This document shows positions 42,523-46,510 of a stretch of DNA of 64,000 bases, in pieces. Below the pieces are notes generated by a model that was given only the letters and a program-made list of their open reading frames with translations, did not search any database and was not told the origin of the DNA. How positions within the stretch are numbered: position 1 is the stretch's first letter; each line of letters opens with the position of its first letter. Origin of the DNA: an uncultured Candidatus Saccharibacteria bacterium (GTDB lineage Bacteria; Patescibacteriota; Minisyncoccia; Phycocordibacterales; UBA9973); contig CAZSFP010000001.1 of the NCBI GenBank assembly GCA_964606285.1, positions 133,376-197,375 on the forward strand. The letters run 5' to 3'. The position numbers and the translations under genes were made by a program.

Positions 42523-42638
42523 AAGATTAGTATATCACTATCTTGATTCATCAAATATCCAATTTATGCATCTTTGCATGTGGTCATGAATTATTCACAT
42601 TTCCACAAGGACGGTCCTTGCGAACCACTTAATTGAAA

Positions 42639-42968
42639 TTAACCTGTATATTTCCCAGGCTTCAAATAGAATGTTATCCTACTGATACGCTCATTCTTTT
42701 TTAAGAATCCTAGTTTTGAAAAAACTCCAGTACCTAATCCTAAAACTTTTATACCTGCACCCACAGAACCATTAGAAGAGTCTTCAACGGTTACTGCAAT
42801 ATCAAATATTATTTTACCAGCATCACCGTTATATGGTCCCATTTGAAAATGTGCTTCTTTATCTAAACCTAGAGTACCGCCTTCAATTTTTGCAATTTCT
42901 TCATTTGCTGACCTTACTCCATTCCTTATGTCTAACAGTGATTGTTTTATAAATTCATCTAGTTTCAT
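42639..42968 (-). CDS. hypothetical protein (109 aa)
   Basis: ORF downstream of the PIN-like gene. Confidence 0.4.
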   Translation of the reverse strand: MKLDEFIKQSLLDIRNGVRSANEEIAKIEGGTLGLDKEAHFQMGPYNGDAGKIIFDIAVTVEDSSNGSVGAGIKVLGLGTGVFSKLGFLKKNERISRITFYLKPGKYTG

Positions 42969-43070
42969 ATTATTTATCTAAATACTTTTAATTATTCCAA
43001 AGTTTAGTGATTGTTTCTTTGATTTTTTGATCGTGTTCACAAGCACAGTTATTGCTAATCCGCTTGCGAA

Positions 43071-44123
43071 TCATGGAGATAGTCTCATTGACGTTAATCC
43101 ACCATTCTTACAGTTATCACATAATCCATTATCAGCAAAGACGGATGTTGGGCTATATACATAAGCTCTCAGACAATTCCTACAAGATCTTGCTGAAATT
43201 GATATAGGATTTACAGTTTGAAATGATTCGGACAATCTAATATCTGTATTCATGATCGAATTCCTTAAATCTGTAGTTTTTAGTACTGCAGGAGAATTAT
43301 TAAGGATAATGGGGTTCGCAGATTGTAATGAAACCAATGCGTTCTCATAATCTACACTGAAAACCCCTGAGGATTGATTCCTCTTCTCTTCAAATTGCTC
43401 AATGGTTTGTTTTTTGTATCCAGCAGAGAAATTCTTATTTAACATTTTCAGTGGATCGAAGTAATAACTAACATCTTTGAATAAAGTCTGAATACTAGTT
43501 GCTAGAATTAAATCATCTCGATTTTTAATCTTTGGATTTTCGGTAAAATCAAAAATATTACCGGTACTAAAAAATAATTCATAATCTTTTTTGTTTTCCA
43601 AGTATTTAACGACCGAAGCAATAATCAAACAGTCTGGCTGTATGTTTTCGTAATTTTTTTTCTCACCCGTAGATTTCTTATAAGGCTTACTTCCTTTTAG
43701 GAACATACAGTAGGCCTGAGTTAAAGCTTCAGGAGTTAGCCTTAAATCATCTCGGATAGTATTAGGGTGTTCAAAAATACTTCTAACATCTTTTTTAATT
43801 TTTTGAATCTCTTTTAAGGTAGTTTCCTTGCCTTGCTGAATTGATTTGGTTAAATTATCTTTAGCTTTTTTGCTTCCGATTGTATTGCTCTTTTGAATAA
43901 TTGTAACCAAATCATTCGCTTCATTATTTATCAACTCAATCTTTTCATTAAACTTTCTTTCAAATTCAAGTTCTATTATTTCCGGTAAAAGAAGTTTAAA
44001 TTTGTTTGCATTTAACAACTTGTTAATTTTTTCTAAAACATCATCACTATTAAATTCAAGATCTAAAAAACATAGGTGTATATAAATATTTGAGTCTATT
44101 AAAACAAATTTTTCTTTTTTCAT
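43071..44123 (-). CDS. PIN-like nuclease domain protein with C-terminal CxxC-x17-CxxC zinc ribbon
   Basis: N-terminal FVLIDSNIYIHL (first PIN acidic residue) and later DCLIIASV; C-terminal CRNC...CDNC. Confidence 0.55.
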   Translation of the reverse strand: MKKEKFVLIDSNIYIHLCFLDLEFNSDDVLEKINKLLNANKFKLLLPEIIELEFERKFNEKIELINNEANDLVTIIQKSNTIGSKKAKDNLTKSIQQGKETTLKEIQKIKKDVRSIFEHPNTIRDDLRLTPEALTQAYCMFLKGSKPYKKSTGEKKNYENIQPDCLIIASVVKYLENKKDYELFFSTGNIFDFTENPKIKNRDDLILATSIQTLFKDVSYYFDPLKMLNKNFSAGYKKQTIEQFEEKRNQSSGVFSVDYENALVSLQSANPIILNNSPAVLKTTDLRNSIMNTDIRLSESFQTVNPISISARSCRNCLRAYVYSPTSVFADNGLCDNCKNGGLTSMRLSP

Positions 44124-44130
44124 ATATTAA

Positions 44131-46149
44131 TTATAGATCTTCTAAAACTCTTACTACGACTGCTTGGACGATCATTTCTTCATTCTCAGTAAACTTCATG
44201 GGCTGGTGTTTTGGATTTGTGGAGCAAGGCTTTAATACAACAACCCCATTTTCTCTATAATACTCTTTTATTGTAGCATCCTCGCCAATAAGTGCGACAA
44301 CTCTATTCCCTATTTCTGGATGATAATTTTTACGGCACAAGACGAGGTCTCCATCATTTATCCCTGCTTTATTCATGGAATCTCCAGTAGTACGAAGTAC
44401 AAAATATTTTGAACCTTTAGAAATATATTCTACTGGAACATCTATCATTTCCTGAACGGTAGAGTCCGCAAACATCAATTCCCCGCAACCAGCCGAATCA
44501 AAAAGCGGAAGCTTTACCATCTGGCCAGCATATGGAGACTTTATTATTTTTGAAGTAATTTCTTTTTTAATGGATGTAACTTCTTTATTTATTATTTCAT
44601 TAAAATAATCTCTCAAACCTTGATCAACGATATAAATATAAGTTCCTTTTATACCGCGAGTTAACAATGTTTTATAAATATTTATTACATATCTTTCAAG
44701 TTCATTTGGGTCAGTAATGCCATTTCTACCATTTATATCAAAATATTTCTCACGATCAACTTTAAATTTTTTATTTACAGGGTCATATGAAAACTCAGGT
44801 CCAATAATAACCCCAACATAGTTCAAATCATAACCTTGAACTGTATGTATACAACCAACTTCATTTATAGCATTGGGTGAATTAACCCAGTCTTGAGCAA
44901 CGGAATTCCAGACCAATTTCAAGTCACCTATTTCAATATCATAATCACGAGTTCCCTTTGCGGTGTGCCATGGCCACGCATAACCAGCAACAACGCGGGC
45001 CAATTTATGCTTTTTGTCTTTTTCTTTAATTTCACTAACCATTTGCTCTGCATTATCGAATATTTTAAAATCATAATTTGAGAAACTTGTATTTTGGGGT
45101 ATTTTTAAATCAAAAATGTCTTCAATAAATTTAATGTACTCTTCGCCTGCTTCAACACGCATCTGAGAATTCAATTCATATTTTTTAGCATTTAATTTTC
45201 TAAAATCTTCAGGACGAATATCAGCTGGTTTTATACTTTGATTTTCATCATAAAAGAAAATTTGGTTTTTTGACGACTTCATAATCCAATCAAGTTGTGT
45301 GCCATTATTATCCAAACCAAGTCCCCGACTTACATTATCAAAAGCTCCATAACCCATAATACCTTTTCGTCTTTGTAGTCTATGTGATTCATCAACAATC
45401 AATAAGTCATATTTATCTTTTACAACATCATTTGGACCAATAACCATATTTGATTTTAATCCTTTTATTTTAGAAAAAACTCTAGCAATTGTTTTTCTAA
45501 GTGAGGCCATTGGTACAACAAGACCAATATTCATATTTTTTGTTTCTTCCTGTTCTTTGAGGTATTTAAAAAGATATGTAGCTAAAATTGTTTTACCTGT
45601 ACCCGGTTTACCATTTACAATAAAAGTATTGTATTCATTCTTTTTTATATCCTTAAAAATCTGTCTAGCGACAGTAAACTGATCTTCTGTTAGAGACTTG
45701 TATGGTGAGTATTTAAATAAATCACTATTTTTTAAATCCTCGAGAGTATTTTTTACTAAACCCATCTGTCGTAAATTTTCCCAAGCTATTTCAAACTTTG
45801 CTTTGTACTTTACCTTGTCGTAATAATTATGATTCTTTAAACCCCCATTACTATTCTGTAAAATAAACTTTTCGTCAGCAGAAATATACTGAATTAACCA
45901 AGACTCGATATCAAAAGCGGCAGAAATGTTAAATTCTTCATCAGTAATAATATGAATTTCTTTTAACTTCGCTCTTTCCGGATTTTCATAATGTTGCTTA
46001 CTTCGAAAATAAGCGTTCACTGTTTGACCAATATAAACTTCCTTCTTGTCTTCTAAAATGTAAACAACAGGCCAATTTTTACCAAATTTAAAATTCTTAA
46101 TTTGATCAAAATCCTCTCTATTAAATGGAAAAGTTTTTATTTCAGACAT
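44131..46149 (-). CDS. three-domain fusion: GIY-YIG nuclease + DUF2075-like SF1 helicase-type P-loop NTPase + LexA/UmuD-like S24 peptidase
   Basis: GIY-YIG: VVYILEDKKEVYIGQTVNAYFRSKQH...E. NTPase: Walker A GKPGTGKT, DExH-like LLIVDESHRL, IHTVQGYDLNYVGVII. S24: candidate Ala-Gly cleavage site (DSAG/CG) about 35 aa upstream of TGDSMNKAGINDGDLVL...TIKEY (Ser/Lys dyad). Confidence 0.7.
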   Translation of the reverse strand: MSEIKTFPFNREDFDQIKNFKFGKNWPVVYILEDKKEVYIGQTVNAYFRSKQHYENPERAKLKEIHIITDEEFNISAAFDIESWLIQYISADEKFILQNSNGGLKNHNYYDKVKYKAKFEIAWENLRQMGLVKNTLEDLKNSDLFKYSPYKSLTEDQFTVARQIFKDIKKNEYNTFIVNGKPGTGKTILATYLFKYLKEQEETKNMNIGLVVPMASLRKTIARVFSKIKGLKSNMVIGPNDVVKDKYDLLIVDESHRLQRRKGIMGYGAFDNVSRGLGLDNNGTQLDWIMKSSKNQIFFYDENQSIKPADIRPEDFRKLNAKKYELNSQMRVEAGEEYIKFIEDIFDLKIPQNTSFSNYDFKIFDNAEQMVSEIKEKDKKHKLARVVAGYAWPWHTAKGTRDYDIEIGDLKLVWNSVAQDWVNSPNAINEVGCIHTVQGYDLNYVGVIIGPEFSYDPVNKKFKVDREKYFDINGRNGITDPNELERYVINIYKTLLTRGIKGTYIYIVDQGLRDYFNEIINKEVTSIKKEITSKIIKSPYAGQMVKLPLFDSAGCGELMFADSTVQEMIDVPVEYISKGSKYFVLRTTGDSMNKAGINDGDLVLCRKNYHPEIGNRVVALIGEDATIKEYYRENGVVVLKPCSTNPKHQPMKFTENEEMIVQAVVVRVLEDL

Positions 46150-46150
46150 T

Positions 46151-46489
46151 TTATAATTCAGTATACTTACTATGTTTATTTTTAGATTTTTTTACAGGAT
46201 ATTTTTTATTATTCTCTTTCATCTTTAAAATAAAAGCTTTTTCAAGATCAACATTTAAATCATTAGACATTAACAAAACCCAGTACAAAACATCAGCAAG
46301 TTCTTTTGCTATTTCTTTTTTATTTTTCTTTACATGAAGTTCCATTTCCTCCAGATTTTTCCATTGAAAATGTTCTAATACTTCTGAGGATTCTAAACAT
46401 AGAGAAATAGCAAGATCTTTTGGATTATGAAATTGCTTCCAATTACGAGCATTTCTAAATTTAACAATTTGTTCTGTAAGCTTTTTCAT
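46151..46489 (-). CDS. DCTPP1/MazG-like all-alpha NTP pyrophosphohydrolase
   Basis: RNWKQFHNPKDLAISLCLESSEVLEHFQWK and ELADVLYWVLLMSNDLNVDLEKA...KYP match the dCTP pyrophosphatase 1 / YpjD motifs; its stop is separated by 1 nt from the next start. Confidence 0.75.
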   Translation of the reverse strand: MKKLTEQIVKFRNARNWKQFHNPKDLAISLCLESSEVLEHFQWKNLEEMELHVKKNKKEIAKELADVLYWVLLMSNDLNVDLEKAFILKMKENNKKYPVKKSKNKHSKYTEL

Positions 46490-46510
46490 AATTTTATCTT
46501 AAAAGTTCAT

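What the first reader, a model, noticed from the sequence alone, without database searches (positions are those of the whole stretch)
44131..46149. 672-aa fusion protein: GIY-YIG nuclease + DUF2075-type SF1 P-loop NTPase + LexA-like S24 self-cleaving peptidase
- The sequence shows three recognisable modules in one polypeptide. The N-terminus is a GIY-YIG core (VVYILEDKKEVYIGQT...R..QH...E). The middle is a helicase-like NTPase with Walker A GKPGTGKT, Walker B DESH, and the DUF2075/UvrD_C-like IHTVQGYDLNYVGVII. The C-terminus is an S24 peptidase with TGDSM (Ser) and TIKEY (Lys), and a candidate Ala-Gly cleavage site (DSAG-CGEL) about 35 residues upstream, just as in LexA.
- From established knowledge, S24 domains autocleave when bound to RecA-ssDNA filaments, and GIY-YIG domains are DNA endonucleases.
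- My inference is that this is a damage- or phage-replication-sensing effector, in which RecA-stimulated autocleavage could license or release a nuclease/ATPase. I am not aware of a described defense system with this architecture.
Basis: partly seen in the sequence, partly recalled or inferred. Interest (0 to 1): 0.85.

Follow-up and report, generated by a model that had tools for sequence, protein, structure and literature searches.

The report
Self-cleaving nuclease-helicase defence gene pair
This gene encodes a DNA-cutting, DNA-unwinding enzyme with a LexA-type self-cutting tail, always paired with a small nucleotide-hydrolysing enzyme on a mobile island; it looks like an undescribed variant of a known anti-virus protein family that DNA-damage or replication signals may switch.

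Summary
The 672-aa ORF (44131-46149, minus strand) is real and all three modules are confirmed. The modules are a GIY-YIG nuclease (fold and invariant residues), a Schlafen-group-3/DUF2075 SF1 helicase (Pfam E 3e-70), and a LexA/UmuD-type S24 peptidase with an invariant Ser591/Lys628.

The protein is not a stand-alone oddity. At least 597 species genomes, mostly CPR/Patescibacteria, carry relatives. In 84 of 85 loci a DCTPP1-like MazG pyrophosphatase gene is directly adjacent, so this is a two-gene cassette. The cassette is AT-rich and sits at different genomic sites. Its neighbours are restriction nucleases, methylases and toxins, and it is absent from all 54 LysRS-syntenic relatives.

About half of the family are natural short forms ending at residues 520-526, with no S24. 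S24 presence and subtype are scattered across the core tree.

Best reading: an Nhi/AbiO-like anti-phage nuclease-helicase with an optional, removable S24 regulatory module. Self-cleavage, presumably RecA*-stimulated, would yield a product like the short form. Cleavage, RecA dependence and defence are all untested. No paper describing this architecture was found. Verdict: a new variant of a known kind.

The parts
46151..46489 (-). MazG-like all-alpha NTP pyrophosphohydrolase (112 aa), DCTPP1/RS21-C6-like. It is the obligate partner gene. Its stop codon lies 1 nt before the fusion gene's ATG.
   Evidence: Pfam MazG-like PF12643, E 1e-15, 58 bits against a cutoff of 27. PDB hits: 4qgp pyrophosphatase 7e-18 and dCTP pyrophosphatase 1 at 2e-16. 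It lies directly upstream on the same strand in 84 of 85 loci. E33, E36, E39, E63 and D66 are at least 95% conserved in 81 sequences. The junction reads TAA-A-ATG.
44131..46149 (-). 672-aa GIY-YIG / SLFN-group-3 (DUF2075) SF1 helicase / S24 peptidase fusion protein.
45838..46074 (-). GIY-YIG nuclease core (residues 26-104), with Y30, Y39, G41, R49, H53, E82 and N99.
44590..45627 (-). SF1 helicase/NTPase core (residues 175-520). Walker A is GKPGTGKT (K186) and Walker B is DESH (D253/E254).
   Evidence: PF09848, E 2.7e-70. Foldseek hits are SLFN11, SLFN14, RecD2 and Dda. Motif residues are conserved in 83 of 83 sequences.
44515..44583 (-). Variable, predicted-disordered linker (residues 523-545) between the helicase and the S24 module. 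Natural short forms end just before it.
   Evidence: pLDDT is below 50 for residues 523-541. Short forms end at reference positions 520-526. The columns are variable in alignment A1.
44482..44487 (-). Predicted scissile bond Cys555-Gly556 (UmuD-type).
   Evidence: Conserved in 47 of 47 long forms. It aligns with the Ala-Gly of T. maritima LexA. Codons were checked.
44134..44514 (-). S24 LexA/UmuD-like self-cleaving peptidase domain (residues 546-672). The nucleophile Ser591 is at 44377-44379 and the general base Lys628 at 44266-44268.
   Evidence: Pfam S24, E 2e-23. PDB LexA hits reach 1e-11. Foldseek TM to the LexA C-terminal domain is 0.85-0.87. S591 and K628 are conserved in 47 of 47.
43071..44123 (-). 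PIN_12-domain protein with a C-terminal CxxC zinc ribbon (350 aa). It occupies the variable downstream slot, 7 nt after the fusion gene. It is probably independent island cargo or a locus-specific accessory nuclease.
   Evidence: Pfam PIN_12, E 1e-10. No homologue lies next to the cassette in 85 other loci. The same slot elsewhere holds Mrr, NucS/PD-(D/E)xK, NYN, HNH, a methylase and others.
42639..42968 (-). 109-aa ORF of unknown function at the distal end of the low-GC island.
   Evidence: No family hits. It is unrelated to the 109-aa ORF in L001. It lies within the low-GC block.
42550..46500 (.). AT-rich island (GC 25-36%) between host-like flanks of 47-50% GC. It begins 21 nt after the LysRS stop codon.
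   Evidence: The cassette is absent downstream of LysRS in all 54 related PBP2-GreA-LysRS loci.

Best explanation
SHOWN
- The gene is half of a horizontally mobile two-gene cassette. The other half is a DCTPP1-like MazG nucleotide pyrophosphatase, placed for translational coupling.
- The fusion protein has an intact GIY-YIG nuclease, an intact SF1/Schlafen-type helicase, and a LexA/UmuD-type S24 domain. The S24 domain has an intact Ser591-Lys628 dyad and an invariant Cys555-Gly556 bond at the LexA cleavage position.
- The cassette sits in variable, defence- and toxin-rich neighbourhoods.
- About half of the family lack S24 and end at residues 520-526.

INFERRED
- The nuclease-helicase works like Nhi/AbiO. 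It loads on foreign (phage or plasmid) replication intermediates, unwinds them and nicks or degrades them.
- The S24 tail is a removable regulatory module that holds the enzyme in a restrained, probably dimeric or auto-inhibited, state.
- RecA-ssDNA filaments accumulate during phage replication or DNA damage. They would stimulate self-cleavage at Cys555-Gly556 and shed a fragment of about 13 kDa. What remains is a 555-residue enzyme equivalent to the constitutive short forms.
- The MazG partner acts on the dNTP pool, possibly on dCTP or modified dCTP. This is the least certain step.
For: Domains and residues.

Partner gene:
- The MazG-like gene is adjacent in 84 of 85 loci.
- The pair is also found on a B. 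thuringiensis plasmid at 35% identity.
- The pairing persists with the gene order swapped in viral contigs L144 and L145.
- The MazG metal-binding motif is at least 95% conserved, and the protein is homologous to DCTPP1 at 2e-16.

Mobility:
- GC is 25-36% inside the island against 47-50% in the flanks.
- The cassette's GC is lower than its flanks in 60 of 66 loci, by 6.9 points on average.
- The flanking genes differ from locus to locus.
- The cassette is absent in all 54 LysRS-syntenic relatives.

Defence context:
- PADLOC matches Nhi at 5e-17, AbiO at 8e-16, and the candidates PDC-S14 and PDC-S41.
- Neighbours include Mrr, NucS/PD-(D/E)xK+MrcB_N, NYN, HNH, DpnI, type II methylases, type IV restriction enzymes, Fic, AbiEii, PemK and DUF3427.

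S24 as a removable module:
- Short forms end at 520-526, and no S24 remnant follows them.
- The linker 523-541 is predicted disordered.
- S24 state changes at least 14 times on the core tree.
- Full-length Nhi has an auto-inhibited nuclease, while its N-terminal fragment is active.
Against: - No experiment exists for any member of this family.
- RecA dependence is extrapolated from LexA, UmuD and CI.
- The direction of the switch (activation or inactivation) is not determined by sequence.
- Frequent loss of S24 shows it is dispensable, so it could be a minor modulator.
- Defence-island enrichment was not tested against a background rate, and many neighbours are housekeeping or unknown genes.
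- The PADLOC Nhi/AbiO match covers only residues 82-380, which is essentially the helicase core.
- Nhi's nuclease is PD-(D/E)xK, not GIY-YIG.
- MazG and core pairwise identities correlate only weakly (rho 0.12).
- The MazG protein has no PADLOC hit.
Confidence: 0.5

Rival explanations
1. The S24 domain is a targeting or dimerisation module, not a switch. It docks the nuclease-helicase into the groove of RecA-ssDNA filaments, as the LexA and UmuD C-terminal domains do, or it simply dimerises the enzyme. Self-cleavage would be incidental or would serve only turnover.
For: The domain superposes on RecA-bound LexA C-terminal domains (8s7g, 8gms, 8trg; TM 0.81-0.86). Nhi is a dimer in solution. LexA and UmuD dimerise through this domain (established knowledge).
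Against: Cys-Gly, Ser591 and Lys628 are conserved in 47 of 47 sequences across 33-92% S24 identity. That argues that catalysis itself is under selection, not only the fold. Short forms work without any such tether.
Confidence: 0.15
2. Cleavage is an off-switch or safety device. The S24-mediated dimer is the active form, and RecA*-stimulated cleavage during host DNA damage disarms the nuclease-helicase so that it does not attack the cell's own repair intermediates.
For: The architecture and residues are the same as for the best explanation. AbiO and one staphylococcal Nhi homologue are reported as toxic when expressed, so self-protection is plausible.
Against: Natural short forms with the same MazG partner are as widespread and as conserved as long forms. 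The S24-less product is therefore presumably functional, not dead.
Confidence: 0.1
3. This is a DNA-damage repair or tolerance module rather than immunity. It would combine a UvrC-like GIY-YIG nuclease and a helicase activated by an SOS-type signal with a MazG enzyme that sanitises damaged dNTPs. Such a module could be useful in small-genome CPR bacteria.
For: GIY-YIG is the UvrC nuclease fold. DCTPP1/MazG enzymes are house-cleaning enzymes (and established knowledge). S24 proteins are SOS components. Some neighbours are repair genes: Pyr_excise in L003 and a photolyase-related gene.
Against: The distribution is patchy. The cassette is absent in all 54 close LysRS-syntenic relatives. Its GC is foreign and its insertion sites vary. 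Its neighbours are dominated by restriction, toxin and defence genes. PF09848 nuclease fusions are experimentally anti-phage.
Confidence: 0.12
4. It is a selfish addiction or homing element. The GIY-YIG nuclease-helicase would be a toxin or homing nuclease, and MazG (or the S24 tail) its antidote. The cassette would be kept by post-segregational killing rather than by any benefit to the host.
For: The cassette is mobile and AT-rich. Neighbours include toxin-antitoxin genes (Fic, PemK, AbiEii, SocA). Small free-standing GIY-YIG ORFs flank the cassette in L001.
Against: No flanking repeats, tRNA or integrase lie at the window island. The helicase and MazG catalytic motifs are strictly conserved. 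Homing endonucleases do not need an SF1 helicase. Only 5 hits were found in 2.9 million viral contigs.
Confidence: 0.08

Closest known systems
Nhi (S. epidermidis SERP2475; Bari et al., bioRxiv 10.1101/776245) and the 'Nhi-like' protein of Millman et al. 2022 (bioRxiv 10.1101/2022.05.11.491447)
   Same: Both have an N-terminal nuclease followed by a DUF2075/PF09848 SF1 helicase in one polypeptide. PADLOC's Nhi model matches at E 5e-17. Both spread horizontally and have defence-rich neighbourhoods. Full-length Nhi has an auto-inhibited nuclease, which parallels the proposed restraint by S24.
   Different: Nhi's nuclease is PD-(D/E)xK, whereas this one is GIY-YIG. Nhi is described as a single-gene system, whereas this protein has an obligate MazG-like partner. 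No S24 domain is described in Nhi or Nhi-like proteins.
AbiO (Lactococcus abortive-infection protein)
   Same: It has a PF09848/Schlafen-group-3-like SF1B helicase with an N-terminal nuclease. PADLOC's AbiO model matches at E 8e-16.
   Different: AbiO has a PD-(D/E)xK-type N-terminal domain, no S24 domain, and no reported MazG partner.
LexA / UmuD / lambda CI (MEROPS S24 self-cleaving proteins)
   Same: The fold matches (TM 0.85-0.87). The Ser-Lys dyad is present. The scissile bond sits about 36 residues upstream of the Ser and is Cys-Gly, as in UmuD. TIGR00498 lexA scores 75.8 bits and UmuD NF007621 scores 63.5 bits, both below their cutoffs.
   Different: There is no N-terminal DNA-binding domain (unlike LexA and CI) and the protein is not a polymerase V subunit. 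Here the S24 module is the C-terminal appendage of an enzyme. Cleavage would release the S24 core from a nuclease-helicase rather than separate a repressor's DNA-binding domain from its dimerisation domain.
Group III Schlafen proteins (SLFN11, SLFN14)
   Same: These are the best structural matches for the helicase core (Foldseek E 3e-10), in the same Pfam family PF09848. They are nuclease plus helicase proteins involved in responses to replication stress and viruses.
   Different: Schlafens carry an N-terminal tRNA/rRNA-targeting SLFN nuclease domain, not GIY-YIG. They are eukaryotic and share only 10-12% identity. They have no S24 domain.
DCTPP1 / RS21-C6 and MazG-like (PF12643) house-cleaning pyrophosphatases (partner gene)
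   Same: The partner is homologous at E 2e-16 to dCTP pyrophosphatase 1, and the ExxE...ExxD metal motif is conserved.
   Different: Its substrate is unknown. It is strictly operon-linked to a nuclease-helicase on a mobile island. No paper was found that links MazG to DUF2075.
PADLOC candidate systems PDC-S14 and PDC-S41
   Same: PDC-S14 models match the N-terminal domain (residues 2-132, E 5e-6). PDC-S41 matches the C-terminal half of the helicase (residues 320-507, E 1e-7).
   Different: These are untested single-gene candidates, the matches are weak and partial, and no S24 or MazG component is modelled.

Membership tests
GIY-YIG nuclease superfamily | The Pfam PF01541 profile match reaches the gathering score. 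| tested here: inconclusive
   This protein scores 17.5 bits against a cutoff of 22.6. Homologues 40-50% identical score 25-38 bits over nearly the whole profile. A profile search against PDB sequences finds UvrC only at E 0.26.
GIY-YIG nuclease superfamily | The beta-beta-alpha-beta-alpha fold with catalytic Tyr, Tyr, Arg, His/Tyr, Glu and Asn. | tested here: met
SLFN-group-3 / DUF2075 SF1 helicase (PF09848) | A profile match above the cutoff with intact Walker A and Walker B motifs. | tested here: met
   237.9 bits against a cutoff of 24, covering profile positions 3-354 of 354. GxxGxGK[TS] and DExH are conserved in 83 of 83 sequences. Foldseek hits are SLFN11, SLFN14, RecD2 and Dda.
SLFN-group-3 / DUF2075 SF1 helicase (PF09848) | ATP-dependent unwinding activity. 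| not testable with these tools
   This needs biochemistry.
Peptidase S24 (LexA/UmuD-type) | The Ser-Lys catalytic dyad in the S24 fold. | tested here: met
   PF00717 scores 82.6 bits against a cutoff of 23.3. TM to the LexA C-terminal domain is 0.85-0.87. S591 and K628 are conserved in 47 of 47 sequences.
Peptidase S24 (LexA/UmuD-type) | An (Ala/Cys)-Gly scissile bond about 35 residues upstream of the nucleophile. | tested here: met
Cys555-Gly556 is conserved in 47 of 47 sequences, lies 36 residues before S591, and aligns with the LexA Ala-Gly.
Peptidase S24 (LexA/UmuD-type) | RecA*-stimulated (or alkaline pH) self-cleavage. | not testable with these tools
   This needs a cleavage assay.
LexA repressor (TIGR00498) | An N-terminal winged-helix DNA-binding domain and an equivalog-level score. 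| tested here: not met
   75.8 bits against a cutoff of 110.95. Only LexA positions 79-199 are matched. The N-terminus is GIY-YIG plus helicase.
Nhi anti-phage system | An N-terminal PD-(D/E)xK nuclease. | tested here: not met
   The N-terminal domain is GIY-YIG. Nhi's nuclease is HsdR-like PD-(D/E)xK.
Nhi anti-phage system | A DUF2075 helicase fused to a nuclease, acting as a single-gene system. | tested here: inconclusive
   The nuclease-DUF2075 fusion is present, and PADLOC's Nhi model matches at 5e-17. However, a MazG-like partner is conserved in 84 of 85 loci, so this is probably not a single-gene system.
Nhi anti-phage system | Protection against phage. | not testable with these tools
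   This needs a phage challenge.
MazG-like / DCTPP1 NTP pyrophosphohydrolase (partner gene) | A profile match above the cutoff and the ExxE...ExxD metal-binding motif. | tested here: met
   PF12643 scores 58.1 bits against a cutoff of 27. DCTPP1 matches at 2e-16. E33, E36, E39, E63 and D66 are at least 95% conserved.

The most novel reading that the evidence does not exclude
LexA/UmuD-type autoproteolysis is used here as a post-translational switch built into an immune effector, not into a repressor or a polymerase subunit. RecA-ssDNA filaments formed on replicating phage DNA would directly trigger shedding of the S24 tail from a GIY-YIG nuclease-helicase and so arm it. A co-transcribed DCTPP1-like enzyme would attack the (modified) dCTP pool. 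The S24 sensor module is exchangeable: it comes in two subtypes, or is absent, or is replaced by an HTH, and it recombines independently of the core. That pattern would be expected for a module under arms-race pressure. The cassette would be a major and so far unrecognised defence cassette of CPR/Patescibacteria.
Probability: 0.33. Interest if true: 0.8.

Novelty: new variant of a known kind. Interest (0 to 1): 0.62.

Why it matters
If the inference holds, three things follow.
- It extends the S24 self-cleavage switch from transcription control (LexA, CI) and polymerase V maturation (UmuD) to direct proteolytic licensing of a nuclease-helicase. That would give bacteria a transcription-independent link between RecA* sensing and immunity.
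- It redefines a large "DUF2075 domain-containing protein" family as a two-gene system with a dCTPase-like partner. The family includes at least 597 species genomes, thousands of proteins and 507 clusters at 50% identity with E below 1e-30. This hints at a combined attack on nucleic acid and the nucleotide pool.
- It would be one of the few defence candidates that is abundant in CPR/Patescibacteria, whose phage defence is poorly known.

The natural long and short pairs, and the two S24 subtypes, provide ready-made controls for experiments.

Tried and rejected
- **Exact-sequence contig look-up** for the window protein returned nothing. I used homologues instead.
- **Integration signatures** at the island: there is no tRNA nearby (the only tRNA is at 31.3 kb), no convincing flanking direct repeats, and promoter and terminator matches do not exceed chance.
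- **An exact empty site:** PBP2-GreA-LysRS synteny is conserved, but the distal flank is not conserved at the available divergence (LysRS identity 76% or less). Only absence of the cassette could be shown.
- **A conserved third gene:** the downstream ORFs are mostly unrelated to one another. PIN_12 and the 109-aa ORF have no counterparts in other loci.
- **Short forms as frameshifted long forms:** no S24 remnant lies after the short-form genes. The only tblastn hits in short-form loci lie elsewhere in those loci (L052, L056).
- **Fusion as an assembly or gene-calling artefact:** rejected, because the fusion occurs in 47 species genomes and in all top 120 hits.
- **Mainly phage-borne:** rejected. 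There are only 5 hits in IMG/VR and no full-length hit in GenBank phages.
- **Tight MazG-core co-evolution:** only a weak correlation was found (rho 0.12), so I make no claim.
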